DNA from: Ignicoccus hospitalis KIN4/I
Lineage (GTDB): Archaea > Thermoproteota > Thermoprotei_A > Sulfolobales > Ignicoccaceae
Assembly: GCF_000017945.1 (NCBI RefSeq)
Contig: NC_009776.1
Span: 900,001 to 932,000 of the forward strand
Direction: 5' to 3'
DNA: 32,000 bases
This document shows, piece after piece, positions 15,468 through 29,225 of the stretch (positions are counted from its first letter, which is position 1; each line of letters begins with the position of its first letter). Below the pieces are notes generated by a model. The model ran no database searches, had not been told where the DNA came from, and was given only the letters and a program-made list of their open reading frames with translations. A program made the translations under genes and the position numbers.

Positions 15468-15892
15468 GTGGAGTCTCAAGAGAGAATGGAAAGGTACTAA
15501 TGCCGTATTACCAAATCTAAACGATAGGCGAGATGTGGAGTCTCAAGAGAGAATGGAAAGTGTACTTGTGCTACTGATGAAGAAGATGGGGTGAGAGCGT
15601 GGAGTCTCAAGAGAGAATGGAAAGAACAGGGTCAGTATCTTCGGCAGGAACGTGTCCGTCACCTTCTGTGGAGTCTCAAGAGAGGATGGAAAGATCACCC
15701 GCCGGCCAGGCGGCACCTTCTTCCTAGCTCTTTTGTAGAGTCTCAAAAGAGGATAGAAAGTGGTAAAATCATTCCGGTGGGAATAGAAATTCGGGAAGTG
15801 GAGTCTCAAAAGAGGATAGAAAGAAGACTAGTTTTATTATATCGTCTACGTCTATTCTTAACACTTGTAGAGTCTCAAGAGAGAATAGGAAG
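15468..15892 (+). CRISPR. CRISPR array: 7 repeats of 26 nt, 6 spacers (41, 38, 43, 41, 37, 43 nt)
   Basis: Repeats at 15468, 15535, 15599, 15668, 15735, 15798 and 15867. Consensus GTGGAGTCTCAAGAGAGAATGGAAAG. R1-R3 are identical; R4 has 1 mismatch, R5 has 4, R6 has 3 and R7 has 3. This places the leader on the left and transcription on the + strand. The 3-prime ATGGAAAG resembles the crenarchaeal ATTGAAAG 8-nt crRNA tag. Confidence 0.9.
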
Positions 15893-16102: not shown

Positions 16103-18298
16103 GTGAAGTTCGAAATGCTCGAAAGGGGCTCCGCGCCGACGCTGCTACTCATAGGGATTGCCTTATTCATACTTGCCATCATATCCTCGATTATATTTGA
16201 ATTGCTCAGGGTCCACGAGACGCACTCAATTAAGGTCGTCCAAGGCTTGGAGAACTTCGTGCCCTTGAAGGGCTGCGACCTCCACCTCAAGAGTTACAAG
16301 TATACAACCTTGAAAAAGGTAGGAAAGGGGCTCTTGATTTTAACCTTCCTAAAGCCTTCGACTCACATAATAGTAACTGAGAGGTGCCCCCTAGCCGACG
16401 TTACCTACGATATAGAGGTGACGCCCAACGTATACTCCTACGGTCCGGTGTCAGTCAACGTGTTGAAAGTCGGGAGCTACACGAAGGTTATCTTTGGGTA
16501 CGACTGCTCCGGCTGTAAGGTCAAGTACTCGGTCCGGGGAGGGGGAGTGGCCAGCAAGGAGGAGCTCCCCGGGCTGTTGGCCCTCACCGTAGTGGGCAAC
16601 GCGACGATAGAGTTCAAGCTCCTCGACGATAAGGGCTCCCTCAAGGGCTACGCTAAGGTCTATCCCTATAGCGACTCCGACGGGGACGGGCTGAGCAGCT
16701 TCCTAGAGGTTTTGAAGGGTAGCAGCGATAAGAAGGTTGATACCGACGGGGACGGGGTCGGCGACTACGAGGAGGCGGTGGTTTACAACACCGACCCCTC
16801 CAAGCCGGATACGGACGGGGATGGCTTAAGCGACAAGGTCGAGCTCGTCCTCAAGACCAGCCCGACGAGCCCGGACACGGACGGCGACGGCTTGACGGAC
16901 GGCAAGGAGGTCTCCCTCAAGACCGACCCCTGGAACCCGGACTCCGACGACGACGGCCTGAGCGACGGGGAAGAGCTGGTTTACGGCACCAACCCCTTGA
17001 GCCCCGACACGGACAAAGACGGCTTGGACGACGGGGAGGAGGTGTTGAAGTACAAGTGCGACCCCTCCAAGCCGGATACCGACGGGGACGGCCTAAGCGA
17101 TTATAAGGAAGCGAAGCTGGGCACCGACCCCACTTCGGAGGACACCGATAAGGACGGCTTGGACGACGCGAAGGAGCTTTCCTTAGGGACGAGCCCTACT
17201 TCCGCCGACACGGACGGGGACGGGTTGAACGACTCGGAGGAGCTGGAAGCGGGCTTGGACCCGAAGGACCCCGACGTGGACAACGACGGTTTGCCGGACG
17301 GCAAGGAGCTCAAACTGGGCACGGACCCCAAGGACCCGGACACGGACGACGACGGACTCCCCGACGGCAAGGAGGCGAAGTTGGGTTCGGACCCCTTCAA
17401 GGAAGATACCGACGGGGACGGGTTGAAGGACGGGGAGGAGGCGGAGCTCTGCTCCTCTCCCACTTCCTTAGACACCGACGGCGACGGGGTGCCGGACGCG
17501 AAGGAGGTGGAGCTGAAGACCTCCCCGTGCGAAAGGGACACCGACGGCGACGGGCTGGACGACGGAATAGAGCTGAGGCTCGGCACCGACCCCCGGAACC
17601 CGGACACGGACAAGGACGGCCTGCCGGACGGGGCCGACTACAAGCTGGCCGACCCCTTCGACTACGACACTGACGATGACGGCATACCAGACGGGAAGGA
17701 GTACGAGCTGGGCACGGACCCCAAGAGCGGCGACAGCGACCACGACGGCTTGAGCGACCTCGAGGAGCTTCGAATGGGGACCGACCCGACCAGCCCCGAC
17801 ACCGATGAGGACGGCTTGAACGACTACTACGAGTACGAGCGCGGCTTGGACCCTAGGTCCTCCGACACGGACGGGGACGGGTTGGGCGACGGGAGGGAGC
17901 TGGAGTTGGGCACCGACCCCAAGGACCCGGACAGCGACGGCGACGGCGTTCCGGACGGGGAGGACCGGTGCCCGCTGAGCCCGAACGTGGGCGAGGTTAT
18001 CCTAAGGGTCCCCGAGCCCTTCGAAATAGACCGGGCTTGCGTCGAGGGGGAGTGTGACAGCAAGGCCTTTGATAGGGACATATACGTCTTCGAGCTCTCC
18101 TCCAGTCCCCCTGAGGTGTACGTCAAGGCTAAGATAATGTTGTGCAAGTACAGGACGATATTCAACATATGCGTGGACGCCGACTACTGGGGGGTGGAGG
18201 GGCGCGTGGGGAGGGACGAGAGCGCGAACTTGTGCGTCTGGACGGACCTCTTCCGGTACGTGTGCGTTACGGTGACCTACAAGAGCGTCTGTCCGTGA
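16103..18298 (+). CDS. Membrane-anchored acidic surface protein with 20 thrombospondin type-3-like Ca-binding repeats and a Cys-rich C-terminal domain
   Basis: N-terminal TM APTLLLIGIALFILAIISSIIF. About 150 aa of beta-rich domain. 20 tandem units of 22-24 aa built on D-[TSV]-D-x-D-G-[LVI]-x-D, the most conserved adding E and LGTDP to give DTDGDGLxDxxE..LGTDPxxP. The last unit, DSDGDGVPDGEDRCPLSPN, matches the TSP3 DxDxDGxxDxxDxCP form. The C-terminal ~110 aa contain 10 Cys. An alternative ATG start lies at 16115. Confidence 0.85.
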   Translation: MKFEMLERGSAPTLLLIGIALFILAIISSIIFELLRVHETHSIKVVQGLENFVPLKGCDLHLKSYKYTTLKKVGKGLLILTFLKPSTHIIVTERCPLADVTYDIEVTPNVYSYGPVSVNVLKVGSYTKVIFGYDCSGCKVKYSVRGGGVASKEELPGLLALTVVGNATIEFKLLDDKGSLKGYAKVYPYSDSDGDGLSSFLEVLKGSSDKKVDTDGDGVGDYEEAVVYNTDPSKPDTDGDGLSDKVELVLKTSPTSPDTDGDGLTDGKEVSLKTDPWNPDSDDDGLSDGEELVYGTNPLSPDTDKDGLDDGEEVLKYKCDPSKPDTDGDGLSDYKEAKLGTDPTSEDTDKDGLDDAKELSLGTSPTSADTDGDGLNDSEELEAGLDPKDPDVDNDGLPDGKELKLGTDPKDPDTDDDGLPDGKEAKLGSDPFKEDTDGDGLKDGEEAELCSSPTSLDTDGDGVPDAKEVELKTSPCERDTDGDGLDDGIELRLGTDPRNPDTDKDGLPDGADYKLADPFDYDTDDDGIPDGKEYELGTDPKSGDSDHDGLSDLEELRMGTDPTSPDTDEDGLNDYYEYERGLDPRSSDTDGDGLGDGRELELGTDPKDPDSDGDGVPDGEDRCPLSPNVGEVILRVPEPFEIDRACVEGECDSKAFDRDIYVFELSSSPPEVYVKAKIMLCKYRTIFNICVDADYWGVEGRVGRDESANLCVWTDLFRYVCVTVTYKSVCP
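16673..17965 (+). repeat. In-frame tandem coding repeats (about 66-72 nt units, x20) encoding the TSP3-like motifs
   Basis: Recurrent gacaccgacggggacggc-type cores at regular ~69-nt spacing. Units have diverged at the DNA level and are not identical copies. Confidence 0.85.
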
Positions 18299-25658: not shown

Positions 25659-26621
25659 TCACTTCAGTATAACCACCTTAGTTAAGTCCTCCGCGGCGTA
25701 GGAGCGGGGGAAGACCCTCCTAGCCTCCTCCAAGTGCCTCCTCAAGTCCTTGTACCTAGCGGAGAAGTGGACCATCAAGAGCTGCTTGACCCCGGCCCTA
25801 GCCGCTGCCGTCGCCGCGTCCTCCGCGGTGGAGTGCCCCCTGTCGTGGGCCTCCTCCTTTAACTCCTTGGTGAAGGTGGCCTCGTGGACCAATAAGTCAG
25901 CCCCCTCGGCCTCTTCCACCAGCCTCTCGCAAGGAGCCGTGTCGCCGCTGTAGACCACCTTTATCCTCTCGCCCTCGAACGTGAAGTCCTCGTACTTGAA
26001 CACCCTCCCCTCCCAGACCACGTCCTCCCCGCGCTGGAGCCTCCCCCAGAGCCTCTTGGGCAGCCCCTCCCTTTCCAACACGTCTGCCCTCACCTTCCTC
26101 TTGGAAGCGGTCTCCACCGACACGCCGAAGGCGGGGACCGTGTGATTCACTGGAAACACCTTTAACTTCAAGTTCCTATAAGTTATTTCTGCATCCCTAA
26201 GGACTTCCACTACCTTTATCGGGTAAGGGGGGTAGAAGTAAGTGAGCTCAAAGGACGAGAGGAGGAAGTCCTTCAACCCCTTGGGTCCTATCACCAGCAG
26301 CTCGTCCCTCCTGGAGGCCATGGCCATGGTCTGGAGCAGGCCCGGGAGGCCGAGGACGTGGTCCCCGTGGAGGTGGGAGACGAAGACTACCTTTATCCTC
26401 GAGAAGCTTATCTTGGCCTTCATGAGCTGGAACTGCGTCCCCTCGCCGCAGTCCAAGAGCGCCCCAACCCCTTCGTACTCGAAGTAGTGGGCTGGCAGGG
26501 CCCTCTCGGGGGCCGGGGAGGCGGCGCCGCTGCCCAGCACTACGAACCTCGCCCTCTTCAAAGCCCCTTTCCTTTGAAAGGGGGAGCGGAAGGCCCCCTT
26601 ATGGGGGATGCCCGAATGCAC
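25659..26621 (-). CDS. rnz: Ribonuclease Z (tRNA 3-prime endonuclease, metallo-beta-lactamase fold)
   Basis: FVVLGSGAASP...LLDCGEGTQ, the HxHxDH motif SHLHGDHVLGLPGLL, and C-terminal LVHEATF and HSTAEDAA. A TTG at 26561 (MKRARFVVLGSG) is probably the true start rather than 26621. Confidence 0.9.
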   Translation of the reverse strand: MHSGIPHKGAFRSPFQRKGALKRARFVVLGSGAASPAPERALPAHYFEYEGVGALLDCGEGTQFQLMKAKISFSRIKVVFVSHLHGDHVLGLPGLLQTMAMASRRDELLVIGPKGLKDFLLSSFELTYFYPPYPIKVVEVLRDAEITYRNLKLKVFPVNHTVPAFGVSVETASKRKVRADVLEREGLPKRLWGRLQRGEDVVWEGRVFKYEDFTFEGERIKVVYSGDTAPCERLVEEAEGADLLVHEATFTKELKEEAHDRGHSTAEDAATAAARAGVKQLLMVHFSARYKDLRRHLEEARRVFPRSYAAEDLTKVVILK

Positions 26622-26660: not shown

Positions 26661-26876
26661 TTAGCACCTAAGCGCGGGCTCCAGCGCGTTCTCGGCCAAG
26701 ACGTCCGTGTTCAACACTAATGGGTCGTCAGTGCCTAGGAGGACCCTCAAGCCCTTTGAGACGAAGCACCCGAGCGGGTGAACCCCGGGCTTCAAGACTA
26801 TGATCATGTTAGAGGTGGAGCACGTCTCTATGATAACCTCCCTCTTCTTTCCTGAACGCCTTATGGAGTTCTTCAA
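26661..26876 (-). pseudogene. Adenosine/AMP-deaminase-family C-terminal fragment (71 aa remnant)
   Basis: EVIIETCSTSNMIIVLKPGVHPLGCFVSKGLRVLLGTDDPLV matches the ADA motifs E-x-C-P-x-SN ... HP ... G-x-x-V-x-x-x-TDDP. Only 105 nt separate it from the upstream gene, so roughly 250 N-terminal residues, including the metal-binding His motifs, are absent. The C-terminus also looks short. Confidence 0.55.
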
Positions 26877-26981
26877 GCGCTGAGGCCTCTGAAGGGTTGA
26901 CGTCCTGCAAGGTTTGGCGTAGAGAACCTCGCTACAGCACTACAACGCAAAGGTTTTCTATAAATAAGCTTTCGGAGGATA

Positions 26982-28511
26982 TCATACCTGCAAGACCCAA
27001 TTCAAAGCGGCTTTTAGAGCTTCTTTGTACGCATCCTCGATGTTATCAAAGGTCCTCGGTCCTTGAGGCGTCATGACGCCGTAGAGGACCGGCGGGCAGA
27101 AGCGGCCCACGTTCCTCCTTCCCCGTCCGATCAACACTTCCTTTACCGCCACGAACCTCCTGTCGCACGAGATTCTGGGCTTCCCGCCGACAAACACCGA
27201 GACCCCGCCCACGTGGTAGAGCTTCTTGCCCTTGGGATCCCCTTCTATGACCTTAAGGAGGGACCAGTCGAAGAGCGGTAACACCGCTGCCCCCTCCCTT
27301 ACGGGTACGAACCAAATGGTGGAGACCCTCCTACCCTCCTCCGCGCTCACCCTCATCCCGCCGCCACAAGTCCTCTCGCAGTACATCTCCGGAATGCCGG
27401 AGGCTAGGAGGTAGCCGTAGAAGTTGAAGTCCTCGCGTCCGGGACAAGAACACCTTATCTTAGACCGCCTCGGGAGGCCCAAGGGCCACGTGTGGATGTT
27501 GCTCCCTATCTCCTTCATCGGCCTCCTCGCCTTCCTCTTCCACTCGCTCTTTAACACGGACTTGGCTATCTCTTCTATTATCATTCCGTAATCGTTTGTG
27601 GGGATCCGCTTGAGGTACTCAGTACAGAGGTCCTTCGGGTCGCCTAGGTGCGGGACCTCCCTCCCGTCGCTGAAGTCCCCCAAGGCCTTTGGGTTGAGTT
27701 GCTCTGCTAGCTCACCCGCGCTAATCAAAAGATCTTCAACGCTCCTCAAGAGATTTTCAATAATCTTCTTGACGTCCTCACAAGAGGGTCCGGAGGGGCT
27801 TTCCCAGAACCTGCCGAAGCCGCGGGACGCGGCCTTCCCAATTCCTATTACCGTCAGGGCTGCCTTTACGCTGTTAACGAAAGCTCTCTCCAACGCTTTC
27901 GCGTAACCGCTAAGCCCGAGCCTCCGGAGGCGCCCCTCATCAATGGAATAGTAAACCTTTAGGCGAAGCGCCCCCGGGGGCAAGGGGGCCTTCGTCCCGG
28001 ACTTGTCGTCCCTCCTTATCAACGCGTGGTAGCGGTTCTTCTTGGCGTACTTCGGGTTCCAAGCGTGCTCCTTTAGGACTTCCACCTCCACCCTCAACCC
28101 GAAGAGGGACGCTACGCTCAAACACCCGAAGAGCAAGCACAAGATCGAGTGTTCCCCTATCTTTAACTTCAACTTCTTCTTTTGCCTTTTTTCTTCCTCT
28201 CTCTTCCCTTCTTCGTAAGCTTCCTTCTTCAGCTTCTTCTTTGACTTCTCCTCTTCCCTCTCCTCCCCGTAAGCTTCCCTGTAGCTCTTCGGGGCATCTA
28301 AGTAGGCGTTGAGGGCGAGGGTGAAGGCGTACCTAGCCCTCGCGAGCAGGGCTTGGGAGGTGGGCAGGCCGGTGACAACCCTCCTCCCCCTGAAGTCAGT
28401 AAAGGTCTCGCCCTTCCAGTCGCCCACCATTATGGGAGTGTAGTTGACGTAAGTCCCCAGGGGCTTCCACGGGTCAGCCAAGCTCTGGCGCACCAACTCG
28501 GTTAGGTCCAA
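26982..28511 (-). CDS. RAMP-superfamily protein with two RAMP/RRM-like domains (Cmr1-like), solitary
   Basis: Domain 1: YTPIMVGDW (compare Cmr1 TPlf.GG), SQALLARARYAF, SILCLLFGC...SLFGLRVEV, and G-rich loop GIGKAASRGFGRFW. Domain 2: WPLGLPRR, GRRVSTIWFVPV (compare RraSPl) and G-rich loop IGRGRRNVGRFC. Recognised by eye only. TTG start. Confidence 0.55.
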   Translation of the reverse strand: MDLTELVRQSLADPWKPLGTYVNYTPIMVGDWKGETFTDFRGRRVVTGLPTSQALLARARYAFTLALNAYLDAPKSYREAYGEEREEEKSKKKLKKEAYEEGKREEEKRQKKKLKLKIGEHSILCLLFGCLSVASLFGLRVEVEVLKEHAWNPKYAKKNRYHALIRRDDKSGTKAPLPPGALRLKVYYSIDEGRLRRLGLSGYAKALERAFVNSVKAALTVIGIGKAASRGFGRFWESPSGPSCEDVKKIIENLLRSVEDLLISAGELAEQLNPKALGDFSDGREVPHLGDPKDLCTEYLKRIPTNDYGMIIEEIAKSVLKSEWKRKARRPMKEIGSNIHTWPLGLPRRSKIRCSCPGREDFNFYGYLLASGIPEMYCERTCGGGMRVSAEEGRRVSTIWFVPVREGAAVLPLFDWSLLKVIEGDPKGKKLYHVGGVSVFVGGKPRISCDRRFVAVKEVLIGRGRRNVGRFCPPVLYGVMTPQGPRTFDNIEDAYKEALKAALNWVLQV

Positions 28512-28544
28512 AACGCGCGCCCCCTAGCTTCTCTACCTCGTGCT

Positions 28545-29225
28545 TTAATAGCCCTCGCCGTCACAGAACTCCTCCAACACCTTCTTAATTATTAAGCTTG
28601 AAGAGCAGAGGCCGCCGGGTATGCACCTCTTCTCCTTCATCCTCACCACTTCCACCTCCAGCCCCCTCTTCCTCAGCTCCTCCTTCAGCTCCTCCTCGTC
28701 CCACGTCTGGTCGGGGCCCAAGAAGATGACGTCCGGCTTGAGCTTGACTACGGTCTCTATCGGGTCCTCCCCGCCCACGTAAGCCTCCTTGACGTACTTC
28801 AAGCTGCCCACCACGTACCTCCTCTGCTCTTGGGGCACCACCGGCCCCCTCCCCTTCAGCCTCTTCACGGTCTCGTCCCTAGCGACCACAACTATGACGT
28901 CGCCGAGCTTGGAGGCCTCCTTCAACAGCTCCACGTGTCCGGGGTGCACGATGTCGAAGGTCCCGCCGACGAAGACCCTCTTCCTCCTCTCCCTCTTCCA
29001 CTCGAACTCGGCCTTTCCTATCATCCTTAAGGCGTCTAACAAGCCCTCGGCGTAGGAAGCCGTCACCAGCGCGGTCTCGCAGTCTCCGGAGTTCAAGTAG
29101 TACTCGGTGTCCTCCACGTACCTCTTGGCTAGGTCCACCACCTCGCTCGCTTCGGGAGAATACTTAATATTGCTAATTACTCCCTTCAGGTTGTTCAAAT
29201 ACTTCGCGGCCCTCTCGCAGCTCAA
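28545..29225 (-). CDS. ribL: DUF357-like N-terminal domain fused to FMN adenylyltransferase (archaeal FAD synthase RibL, cytidylyltransferase fold)
   Basis: Nucleotidyltransferase signature VFVGGTFDIVHPGHVELL, followed by VVVARDETV...KGRGPVVPQEQR. The TTG start overlaps the upstream TGA (TTGA). Confidence 0.78.
   Translation of the reverse strand: MSCERAAKYLNNLKGVISNIKYSPEASEVVDLAKRYVEDTEYYLNSGDCETALVTASYAEGLLDALRMIGKAEFEWKRERRKRVFVGGTFDIVHPGHVELLKEASKLGDVIVVVARDETVKRLKGRGPVVPQEQRRYVVGSLKYVKEAYVGGEDPIETVVKLKPDVIFLGPDQTWDEEELKEELRKRGLEVEVVRMKEKRCIPGGLCSSSLIIKKVLEEFCDGEGY

What the first reader, a model, noticed from the sequence alone, without database searches (positions are those of the whole stretch)
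26982..28511. Solitary Cmr1-like dual-RAMP protein embedded in a housekeeping gene string
The 509-aa ORF shows two RAMP-type modules, each ending in a glycine-rich loop (GIGKAASRGFGRFW and IGRGRRNVGRFC). It also carries Cmr1-like landmarks: TPIMVG near the N-terminus, LFGC, LGLPRR, and RRVS followed by a beta strand. No Cas10, other Cmr/Csm subunits, Cas6 or CARF genes occur anywhere in the window. The gene sits 33 nt downstream of ribL and upstream of an ADA remnant and RNase Z, all on the same strand. Three readings are possible. It may be a RAMP exapted for a non-CRISPR RNA-binding or RNA-processing role. It may be a stand-alone Cas6-like processor for the orphan array 11 kb away. Or it may be a leftover from a lost type III-B module. 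Either of the first two would be unusual.
Basis: inference. Interest (0 to 1): 0.7.

Follow-up and report, generated by a model that had tools for sequence, protein, structure and literature searches.

The report
Displaced Cmr1 subunit of Ignicoccus hospitalis
The lone 509-aa gene is a genuine, intact and expressed Cmr1 subunit of a type III-B CRISPR complex in Ignicoccus hospitalis, left behind when its own CRISPR module decayed and most likely serving a Cmr operon elsewhere in the genome that lacks cmr1, so it is an ordinary displaced subunit and not a new kind of system.

Summary
The ORF (26982-28511, minus strand, 509 aa) is real and is a divergent Cmr1. It hits Pfam RAMPs above cut-off. 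All 16 family members match PADLOC Cmr1 models. The family profile's only significant PDB hit is S. islandicus Cmr1, and the AlphaFold model's top Foldseek hits are all solved Cmr1 structures. No Cas6 match appears anywhere.

The window is Ignicoccus hospitalis KIN4/I and the gene is Iho_1039/Igni_1039 (arCOG07302). Nearly every homologue with enough flanking DNA lies in a cmr operon. The closest relatives have cmr1-NTPase-ADA-cmr6, and the window's 71-codon 'ADA remnant' aligns to the last ~70 residues of that ADA gene. So cmr1 plus the stub is the wreck of a type III-B module.

The gene is not decaying. It keeps 40 of 41 near-invariant family positions. Published proteomics detected the protein (94/88 spectra) at the level of single-copy Cmr subunits.

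According to the published annotation table, the genome has 37 cas genes elsewhere. They include operon Iho_0460-0464 (cmr4-cmr5-cmr6-cas10-cmr3), which is the canonical order minus cmr1, and no other Cmr1 is annotated.

Best reading: a trans-encoded Cmr1 retained to serve that complex. Ordinary biology; low novelty.

The parts
26982..28511 (-). cmr1 (Iho_1039/Igni_1039, arCOG07302), 509 aa, TTG start; a long-form crenarchaeal Cmr1 with two RAMP/ferredoxin-like domains
   Evidence: ORF. Pfam RAMPs 28.3 bits against a 22.1 cut-off. PADLOC Cmr1. AF2 model with pLDDT 84 and pTM 0.87. Foldseek top hits are Cmr1 4w8x, 9l7c_A, 4l6u and 6s6b_J. Family profile against PDB hits Cmr1 6s6b_J at 5.6e-7. 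Proteome row Iho_1039.
27804..27845 (-). Glycine-rich loop of the first RAMP domain (residues 223-236, GIGKAASRGFGRFW)
   Evidence: G223, G225 and R230-F235 are invariant in 16 homologues. The loop aligns to GIGRKTSRGFG of S. islandicus Cmr1.
27468..27494 (-). HTWPLGLPR signature of this Cmr1 subfamily (residues 340-348), at the start of the second RAMP domain
   Evidence: Invariant block in alignment A1. It was used as the scanning pattern that recovered relatives.
28158..28265 (-). Lys/Glu-rich low-complexity insertion (about residues 83-118), unique to the I. hospitalis protein
   Evidence: Gapped in all 15 homologues. About 65% K/R/E over the slightly wider residues 75-122. Lowest-confidence part of the model.
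26877..26981 (-). Deletion scar between the cmr1 stop and the ADA stub. In relatives this position holds about 4-4.5 kb: the NTPase gene(s) plus the first ~610-675 codons of the ADA gene
   Evidence: Gene orders in L001 and L002. tblastn finds no NTPase or N-terminal ADA remnant. Sequence.
26661..26876 (-). ADA stub (Iho_1038, 71 codons): the C-terminal remnant of the ADA-domain accessory gene of the former III-B module
   Evidence: 48% identity to residues 681-735 of the 747-aa I. pacificus protein and 40% to residues 614-682 of the 689-aa L002 protein, E about 5e-11. Pfam A_deaminase profile positions 234-287 of 330 only. Zero spectra in the proteome.
28512..28544 (-). 33-nt spacer between ribL and cmr1, with no TATA-like element but a G-rich SD-like stretch; this is the upstream rearrangement junction
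   Evidence: Sequence. Synteny with I. islandicus and I. pacificus ends immediately after ribL.
28585..28595 (-). Possible archaeal TATA-like element (TTAATAATTAA) inside the 3' end of ribL, 74-84 nt upstream of the cmr1 start. Inference only
   Evidence: Read from the sequence. It is suggested by Iho_1039 being more abundant than RibL and staying constant in co-culture while RibL falls to zero.
28545..29225 (-). ribL (Iho_1040, FAD synthase; DUF357 + cytidylyltransferase): a housekeeping neighbour, not part of the system
   Evidence: 100% identical to the I. hospitalis protein. Pfam labels.
25659..26621 (-). RNase Z (Iho_1037): a housekeeping neighbour downstream of the stub. The cmr6 gene that follows ADA in relatives is absent here
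   Evidence: No Cmr6 match in the window.
15468..15892 (+). CRISPR array, 7 repeats of 26 nt ending in ...AATGGAAAG and 6 spacers. It is a likely source of crRNAs for the genome's Cmr and type I-A complexes, not a private partner of this gene
   Evidence: The genome has nine arrays (PMC3149612).

Best explanation
The gene encodes the only Cmr1 subunit annotated in Ignicoccus hospitalis.

Origin. It once belonged to an 'Ignicoccus-type' type III-B module with the order cmr1 - NTPase - ADA-domain accessory protein - cmr6. Deletions and rearrangements removed everything except cmr1 and the last ~70 codons of the ADA gene, leaving cmr1 behind ribL.

Function (inferred). The protein is still made and joins, in trans, the Cmr complex encoded by Iho_0460-0464 (cmr4-cmr5-cmr6-cas10-cmr3). 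It may also serve the partial Iho_0326-0329 set. [quoted passage not shown] Target capture switches on Cmr4 RNA cleavage and the Cas10 activities.

Shown here: Cmr1 identity, the origin as a module remnant, intactness of the gene, and expression (from the literature).
Inferred: physical assembly with the 0460-0464 complex.
For: Cmr1 identity:
- Pfam RAMPs hit above cut-off.
- 16 of 16 family members match PADLOC Cmr1, and none match Cas6.
- 8 of 16 match TIGR01894 Cmr1. More distant family representatives pass its curated cut-off.
- The family profile's only significant PDB hit is S. islandicus Cmr1.
- The top Foldseek hits of a confident model are all Cmr1.

Operon position of homologues:
- cmr4-cmr5-cmr1-cmr6-cas10-cmr3 in L003, L006, L007, L012, L013, L015, L018, L021 and others.
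- cmr1-NTPase-ADA-cmr6 in the closest relatives L001 and L002, and cmr1-NTPase in L034.

Remnant origin:
- The ADA stub matches the C-terminal end of those ADA genes.
- Synteny breaks right after ribL in sister species.

Not decaying:
- 40 of 41 near-invariant positions are kept, as good as the operon-embedded homologues.
- The ORF is intact in the window, in L005, in L035 and in 4 similar assemblies.

Expression (PMC3149612 supplement):
- 94 and 88 spectra; normalised 54, against Cas10 73, Cmr3 45, Cmr6 94, Cmr5 129 and Cmr4 285.
- This fits a single-copy subunit of a complex with roughly 1:1:1:4:3:1 stoichiometry. That stoichiometry is from my own knowledge of the T. thermophilus and P. furiosus complexes.
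- The level is unchanged in co-culture, like the other Cas proteins, while the upstream RibL falls to zero.

Genome inventory by arCOG counts in the same table:
- Cas10 x2, Cmr3 x2, Cmr4 x2, Cmr5 x1, Cmr6 x1, arCOG07302 x1, and no other Cmr1.

Separability:
- Cmr2-6 form a stable core that Cmr1 joins as an activation module (PMC5737701).
- Cmr1 and Cmr6 are required for target capture (PMC4215187).
- A second solitary family member exists in an Acidilobaceae MAG (L016).
Against: - The composition of Iho_0460-0464 rests on a published annotation table. I could not fetch those sequences, so a very divergent unannotated Cmr1 elsewhere is not excluded.
- Iho_1039's nearest relatives belong to the Ignicoccus-type module. 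A search with that module's Cas10 (I. pacificus) found no I. hospitalis Cas10. The I. hospitalis Cmr core may therefore be of a different lineage, and compatibility with this Cmr1 is unproven.
- There are no interaction data.
- Proteomic detection shows expression, not function.
- One assembly (L036) has a 1-nt deletion in a G5 run that splits the ORF. It is probably an assembly error, but it could be a real null variant.
- The lineage-specific K/E-rich insertion could reflect relaxed constraint.
Confidence: 0.62

Rival explanations
1. Expressed but functionless relic. cmr1 survived the decay of its module by chance, is transcribed by read-through from ribL or a fortuitous promoter, and contributes nothing to the Cmr complexes encoded elsewhere.
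For: It sits next to an obviously dead gene fragment from the same module. Its closest relatives belong to a module type whose Cas10 has no close counterpart in I. hospitalis. One assembly shows a frameshift. It carries a unique low-complexity insertion.
Against: It keeps 40 of 41 near-invariant residues, while everything around it was deleted to within ~100 nt on one side and 33 nt on the other. Its protein abundance equals that of single-copy Cmr subunits and is stable across conditions. The 1.3-Mb genome is strongly streamlined (my own knowledge). The main cmr operon lacks cmr1 exactly where relatives have it.
Confidence: 0.2
2. Exaptation. The RAMP protein has been recruited to a CRISPR-independent RNA-binding or RNA-processing role linked to its new neighbours (ribL, RNase Z).
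For: Same-strand, tightly spaced arrangement with housekeeping genes. The protein is expressed. A second family member also sits among housekeeping genes (L016).
Against: The neighbourhood is not conserved. In I. islandicus and I. pacificus, ribL is followed by unrelated genes, and their Cmr1 (where present) is in a cmr locus. L016 has different neighbours. All family-defining motifs shared with operon-embedded Cmr1s are retained. RNase Z and RibL show very different abundances from Iho_1039.
Confidence: 0.07
3. Stand-alone Cas6-like endoribonuclease that processes the nearby array's repeat RNA.
For: It has a dual-RAMP architecture like Cas6, and an array lies 11 kb away with no cas genes around it.
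Against: No Cas6 model matches in Pfam, NCBIfam or PADLOC for any of the 16 family members. No Cas6 structure appears in the top 50 Foldseek hits, while Cmr1 tops the list. The proteome table lists two other stand-alone RAMPs of arCOG01440 (Iho_1070, which was detected, and Iho_1151). I recall this arCOG to be a Cas6 family. Homologues always sit at the Cmr1 position of cmr operons.
Confidence: 0.03

Closest known systems
Cmr1 of Saccharolobus/Sulfolobus islandicus type III-B complexes (Cmr1-beta, PDB 6S6B/6S91 chain J; Cmr1-alpha studied genetically in PMC5737701)
   Same: A long (~470-510 aa) crenarchaeal Cmr1 with two RAMP domains. It is the only significant PDB sequence-profile hit and among the top structural hits. 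It shares the G-rich loop GxGxxxSRGFG and the basic/aromatic first helix. The expected role is binding the crRNA 3' end and target RNA as a separable activation module.
   Different: About 11-12% sequence identity in the structural alignment. It has a subfamily-specific HTWPLGLPR/LYHVG second domain and a unique K/E-rich insertion, and it is encoded away from every other cmr gene.
Cmr1 of Pyrococcus furiosus (PDB 4W8X) and Archaeoglobus fulgidus (4L6U, 9L7C chain A); NCBIfam TIGR01894
   Same: These are the best Foldseek matches (E 6e-5 to 4e-4, probability 1.0). Half of the family members reach TIGR01894 at E<1, and remoter family representatives pass its cut-off.
   Different: They are shorter (~290-340 aa) euryarchaeal forms. 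The window's protein itself has no NCBIfam hit. TM-scores are modest (0.35-0.51) because of extra insertions and a different domain orientation.
Ignicoccus pacificus IPA_01630 and its type III-B locus (IPA_01610 = Cas10)
   Same: It is among the closest full-length homologues (35% identity by BLASTP, 40% in the alignment; metagenomic P0002, P0003 and P0005 are about equally close) and the only one from a complete named genome. Its locus shows what the I. hospitalis locus looked like before decay: cmr1, NTPase, a 747-aa ADA-domain protein and cmr6, next to cmr4-cmr5-cas10-cmr3.
   Different: In I. pacificus the module is complete. In I. hospitalis only cmr1 and 71 codons of the ADA gene remain, at a different chromosomal location.
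Cad1/CAAD, the CARF-fused adenosine deaminases of type III systems (PMC11645235, PMC12993439)
   Same: This is an adenosine-deaminase-fold accessory gene embedded in a type III-B locus. The window's stub derives from a gene of that general kind.
   Different: The relatives' 689-747-aa proteins match ADA models only over about 60-100 C-terminal residues. They show no CARF domain in Pfam and no PDB sequence match to Cad1, and they are paired with a STAND/AAA-like NTPase. The window keeps only a non-functional stub.

Membership tests
Cmr1 (type III-B large RAMP subunit) | Two RAMP (ferredoxin-like/RRM) domains in one polypeptide | tested here: met
   Pfam RAMPs on residues 88-235. The AF2 model (pLDDT 84, pTM 0.87) has beta-alpha-beta-beta-alpha-beta-type elements in both halves. 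Foldseek aligns 427-527 columns to two-domain Cmr1 structures.
Cmr1 (type III-B large RAMP subunit) | Glycine-rich loop at the end of the RAMP domain | tested here: met
GIGKAASRGFGRF (223-235) is invariant in the family and aligns to the S. islandicus Cmr1 loop.
Cmr1 (type III-B large RAMP subunit) | Match to curated Cmr1 sequence models | tested here: met
   Met at family level: 16 of 16 members hit PADLOC Cmr1 PDLC01416 (best 1.3e-18; the window protein 2.5e-5). 8 of 16 hit TIGR01894. Profile-linked representatives P0240, P0260 and P0281 pass the TIGR01894 cut-off. On its own the window protein is weak, with no NCBIfam hit.
Cmr1 (type III-B large RAMP subunit) | Structural similarity to solved Cmr1, better than to other RAMPs | tested here: met
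   Foldseek ranks 1, 2, 4, 5 and 6 are Cmr1 of P. furiosus, A. fulgidus and S. islandicus. Csm3/Cas7-type subunits follow at E>0.01.
Cmr1 (type III-B large RAMP subunit) | Encoded within a cmr operon, typically between cmr5 and cmr6 | tested here: not met
   Not met for this gene, which is flanked by ribL and an ADA stub/RNase Z. Met for most homologues with enough flanking DNA. One other exception is L016. This feature concerns location, not protein identity.
Cmr1 (type III-B large RAMP subunit) | Physical subunit of the Cmr crRNP that binds the crRNA 3' region and target RNA | not testable with these tools
   Indirect evidence only: protein abundance comparable to single-copy Cmr subunits, and a cmr operon without cmr1 in the same genome.
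Cas6 (crRNA-processing endoribonuclease) | Match to Cas6 sequence or structure models | tested here: not met
   No Cas6 family in Pfam, NCBIfam or PADLOC for the protein or any of its 15 homologues. No Cas6 chain in the top 50 Foldseek PDB hits.
Cas6 (crRNA-processing endoribonuclease) | Sequence-specific cleavage of repeat RNA | not testable with these tools
   Needs a biochemical assay with the 26-nt repeat.
Cad1/CAAD-type CRISPR-associated adenosine deaminase (for the stub 26661-26876) | Complete ADA TIM-barrel with catalytic residues, plus a cOA-sensing CARF domain | tested here: not met
   The stub covers only Pfam A_deaminase positions 234-287 of 330. It has zero spectra. Even the full-length relatives show no CARF in Pfam and no Cad1 match in PDB by sequence.

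The most novel reading that the evidence does not exclude
Iho_1039 is no longer (only) a Cmr subunit. After its module was lost, it was kept in this streamlined symbiont-host genome for a CRISPR-independent RNA-binding role. Alternatively, it acts as a single Cmr1 shared by two different Cas10 cores (Iho_0460-0464 and Iho_0326-0329). Either way, recurrent solitary cmr1 genes (also L016) would mark Cmr1 as a free-standing, exchangeable RNA-capture module.
Probability: 0.1. Interest if true: 0.55.

Novelty: new member of a known kind. Interest (0 to 1): 0.25.

Why it matters
The practical gain is a better annotation. Igni_1039, listed as 'hypothetical protein' (arCOG07302, RAMP), can be named Cmr1, and Igni_1038 can be flagged as a pseudogene fragment of a type III accessory deaminase gene. 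This completes the Cmr1-6 set of I. hospitalis.

It is also a clean example of how a type III module decays in a streamlined genome while one subunit is kept. That agrees with biochemical evidence that Cmr1 is a separable add-on to a stable Cmr2-6 core.

The relatives' NTPase + ADA cassette between cmr1 and cmr6 may deserve study as a type III accessory pair, but it lies outside this window.

Tried and rejected
- Single-sequence searches were uninformative: no NCBIfam hit, and phmmer against PDB gave only low-complexity noise from the K/E-rich segment.
- The GTDB species-representative scan and the JGI metagenome scan with the HTWPLGLPR pattern did not return the source genome or any close relative. 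The organism was identified through RibL instead.
- The search with I. pacificus Cas10 found no I. hospitalis Cas10. I could therefore not fetch or inspect Iho_0460-0464 or Iho_0326-0329, and had to rely on the published proteome table.
- No paper in the library mentions Igni_1039, Igni_0460, Igni_0463, Igni_0328 or arCOG07302.
- Rfam found nothing in the window.
- I treated the L036 split ORF as possible evidence of pseudogenisation. I rejected it as probably an assembly error, because it is a single G lost from a CCCCCGGGGG run in an otherwise identical 8-kb contig while six other copies are intact.
- I considered that the ADA stub might be a genuine small gene, because L033 also has a short ADA C-terminal ORF after cmr1. 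The junctions differ by about 54 codons and the stub was not detected in the proteome, so independent truncation is more likely. This remains unresolved.
- The bacterial promoter/terminator scanner was not used, because it does not cover archaeal promoters.
Full report
OBSERVATION. It lies 33 nt after the ribL stop. A 71-codon adenosine-deaminase-like fragment (26661..26876) and RNase Z follow on the same strand. Every quoted motif is present.

In an alignment of 16 homologues, the following are invariant or nearly so: the first glycine-rich loop (GxGxxxxRGFGRF, residues 223-235), the G of LFGC (G129), HTWPLGLPR (340-348) and R394/S397; TPxxxG near the N-terminus is conserved in most members. 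The proposed second glycine-rich loop (461-472) is not conserved; only G478 is. A Lys/Glu-rich stretch (about residues 83-118) is an insertion unique to this protein.

The window contains no other cas gene. The array at 15468-15892 is real, with seven repeats that degenerate away from an AT-rich leader.

WHAT THE PROTEIN IS. Taken alone, the sequence gives a Pfam RAMPs hit above the gathering score (28.3 against 22.1 bits, residues 88-235) and weak PADLOC Cmr1 hits. It gives nothing in NCBIfam or in PDB by phmmer.

At family level the picture is clear:
- All 16 members match the PADLOC Cmr1 model PDLC01416 (best 1.3e-18), and none match Cas6.
- 8 of 16 reach NCBIfam TIGR01894 'Cmr1'.
- An exhaustive profile search finds 403 representative clusters. 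Remoter ones (P0240, P0260, P0281) pass the curated TIGR01894 cut-off.
- The family profile's only significant PDB hit is S. islandicus Cmr1 (6s6b_J, E 5.6e-7), with the G-rich loops aligned.
- An AlphaFold2 model built on the alignment is confident (pLDDT 84, pTM 0.87).
- Its best Foldseek matches are Cmr1 of P. furiosus (4w8x), A. fulgidus (9l7c_A, 4l6u) and S. islandicus Cmr-beta (6s91_J, 6s6b_J). Cas7-type subunits follow, and no Cas6 appears in the top 50.

GENOMIC CONTEXT OF RELATIVES. Most homologues with enough flanking DNA lie in cmr operons. The common layout is cmr4-cmr5-CMR1-cmr6-cas10-cmr3 (L003, L006, L007, L012, L013, L015, L018, L021, L028, L030 and others).

The closest relatives (35-40% identity) have an 'Ignicoccus-type' layout. 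In I. pacificus, cmr1 - NTPase (split) - a 747-aa ADA-domain protein - cmr6 runs divergently from cmr4-cmr5-cas10-cmr3. In L002 the order is cmr1 - 844-aa AAA/STAND-like NTPase - 689-aa ADA protein - cmr6. In L034 it is cmr4-cmr5-like-cmr1-NTPase.

The window's 'ADA remnant' aligns to the extreme C-terminus of exactly these proteins: residues 681-735 of 747 at 48% identity, and 614-682 of 689 at 40%, with E about 5e-11. Nothing else from those loci has any trace in the window. So cmr1 plus the stub is what is left of such a module. About 4-4.5 kb is missing between them, and cmr6 and the genes upstream of cmr1 are gone as well.

SOURCE ORGANISM AND GENOME-WIDE CONTEXT. RibL is 100% identical to the Ignicoccus hospitalis protein on a 1,297,538-bp contig. 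Independent assemblies are identical over 9.4 kb.

In I. islandicus and I. pacificus the MazE/ACT-ribL pair is conserved but the downstream genes differ. The remnant therefore sits at a rearrangement breakpoint.

The proteome table of Giannone et al. [quoted passage not shown] The stub Iho_1038 has none.

The paper reports nine arrays and 37 cas genes. From the table:
- Iho_0460-0464 = Cmr4, Cmr5, Cmr6, Cas10 (983 aa) and Cmr3-type RAMP, all well detected.
- Iho_0326-0329 = Csx1 (DxTHG), Cmr4-family, Cas10 and Cmr3-type.
- A type I-A and adaptation cluster at Iho_1132-1141.
- Stand-alone arCOG01440 RAMPs Iho_1070 and Iho_1151. I take these to be Cas6-like from memory of the arCOG; I did not test this.

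arCOG counts over the whole table give Cas10 x2, Cmr3 x2, Cmr4 x2, Cmr5 x1, Cmr6 x1 and arCOG07302 x1, with no other Cmr1. Iho_0460-0464 thus has the canonical gene order minus cmr1, and Iho_1039 is the only candidate to fill that slot.

IS THE GENE ALIVE? It keeps 40 of 41 positions that are identical in at least 14 of the other 15 homologues. That is as good as or better than the operon-embedded members, for example I. pacificus, which loses 6.

The ORF is intact in the window, in L005, in L035 and in four similar assemblies. One assembly (L036) lacks one G in a CCCCCGGGGG run, most likely an error.

Its normalised abundance (54) lies among the single-copy Cmr subunits: Cas10 73, Cmr3 45, Cmr6 94. 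It lies below the multi-copy Cmr4 (285) and Cmr5 (129). This fits the roughly 1:1:1:4:3:1 stoichiometry of characterised Cmr complexes, a figure taken from my own knowledge. Like the other Cas proteins, it does not change in co-culture, whereas the upstream RibL and AbrB/ACT proteins drop to zero. That hints at its own promoter. An AT-rich TTAATAATTAA element lies 74-84 nt upstream, inside ribL; this is inference only.

MECHANISM. [quoted passage not shown] In S. islandicus, Cmr2-6 form a stable core with low activity, and Cmr1 joins it as an 'activation module' through its first alpha-helix region (PMC5737701).

A subunit that is peripheral and separable can be encoded in trans. I therefore propose that Iho_1039 assembles with the Iho_0460-0464 core on crRNAs carrying the repeat-derived 8-nt tag (the repeat here ends in AUGGAAAG) and promotes target capture.

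What is shown: identity, origin, intactness and expression. What is inferred: assembly and activity.

Supporting the idea that cmr1 can live apart from its operon, a second solitary family member exists in an Acidilobaceae MAG. L016 2595-4388 encodes 597 aa, matches the family profile at E 3e-44, and lies among DUF1464, cupin, ZIP-transporter and oxidoreductase genes.

RIVALS.
(a) Expressed relic without function. This is possible because its parent module differs from the surviving ones. It is disfavoured by conservation, abundance, genome streamlining and the cmr1-less operon.
(b) Exaptation with ribL/RNase Z. The neighbourhood is not conserved, and nothing distinguishes the protein from operon-embedded Cmr1s.
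(c) Cas6-like processor. There is no sequence or structural support, and other stand-alone RAMPs are present in the genome.

COMPARISON AND NOVELTY. This is a divergent, long-form crenarchaeal Cmr1, and a new named member of a known family. arCOG had already flagged it as a CRISPR-related RAMP. What this analysis adds is the assignment as Cmr1, the recognition of Iho_1038 as the stub of a III-B accessory ADA gene, and the link to the cmr1-less operon. For a specialist it is unsurprising; the interest score is low (0.25).

LIMITS. I could not read the rest of the I. hospitalis genome with the available tools. The operon compositions are taken from a published table. The stoichiometry and the Cas6 assignment of arCOG01440 are from memory.

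Noticed in passing
L001 11619-17217 (I. pacificus); L002 2762-8224; L034 2377-3456: In the Ignicoccus-type III-B loci, a STAND/AAA-like NTPase (844 aa, or split 338+473 aa) and a 689-747-aa protein are inserted between cmr1 and cmr6. Only the last ~60-100 residues of the larger protein match adenosine deaminase. Pfam finds no CARF domain, and there is no PDB sequence match to Cad1. This may be an uncharacterised type III accessory pair.
   Followed up: partly
L033 2300-2596: In the contig of P0002, one of the closest homologues, cmr1 (preceded by the cmr4 C-terminus and a Cmr5-like gene) is also directly followed by an ORF that matches only the C-terminal part of the ADA protein. That ORF starts about 54 codons earlier than the window's stub. 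This is either independent decay of the same cassette or a real short form.
   Followed up: partly
L016 2595-4388 (Acidilobaceae MAG, contig JALSQM010000153.1; same as L032): A second solitary, apparently intact family member: 597 aa, GLGKAASRGFGHF and HTWPLGLPR present. It is flanked by DUF1464, cupin and ZIP-transporter genes upstream and oxidoreductases downstream, with no cmr gene within 3.4 kb upstream (to the contig end) or about 9.5 kb downstream.
   Followed up: partly
window 28158-28265 (-): A lineage-specific Lys/Glu-rich insertion of about 36 aa (…EEREEEKSKKKLKKEAYEEGKREEEKRQKKKLKLK…) inside the first RAMP domain. It is absent from all 15 homologues and modelled with low confidence.
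   Followed up: no
L036 about 7255 (= window ~27971): One Logan assembly (ERR9765779) has G4 instead of G5 in a CCCCCGGGGG run, which splits cmr1 into 183- and 303-aa ORFs. The contig is otherwise identical over 8 kb. This is probably an assembly error, but it could be a real null allele.
   Followed up: partly
The last three or four repeats are degenerate, and an AT-rich leader-like region (GC 0.46) lies upstream. It is flanked by a thioredoxin-fold gene and a TSP3-repeat protein, with no cas genes.
   Followed up: partly
window 16103-18298 (+): A 731-aa protein (Iho_1029) with ten bacterial thrombospondin type-3 repeats, encoded by 66-bp tandem DNA repeats. It is followed by a LamG-domain protein. 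Both were essentially undetected in the proteome.
   Followed up: no
L037 2882-3703 (I. islandicus): A Cas_APE2256-family gene lies about 4.3 kb upstream of ribL in I. islandicus, among housekeeping genes. It is another isolated CRISPR-associated gene in this genus. I. hospitalis likewise has an isolated APE2256-family gene, Iho_0665.
   Followed up: no
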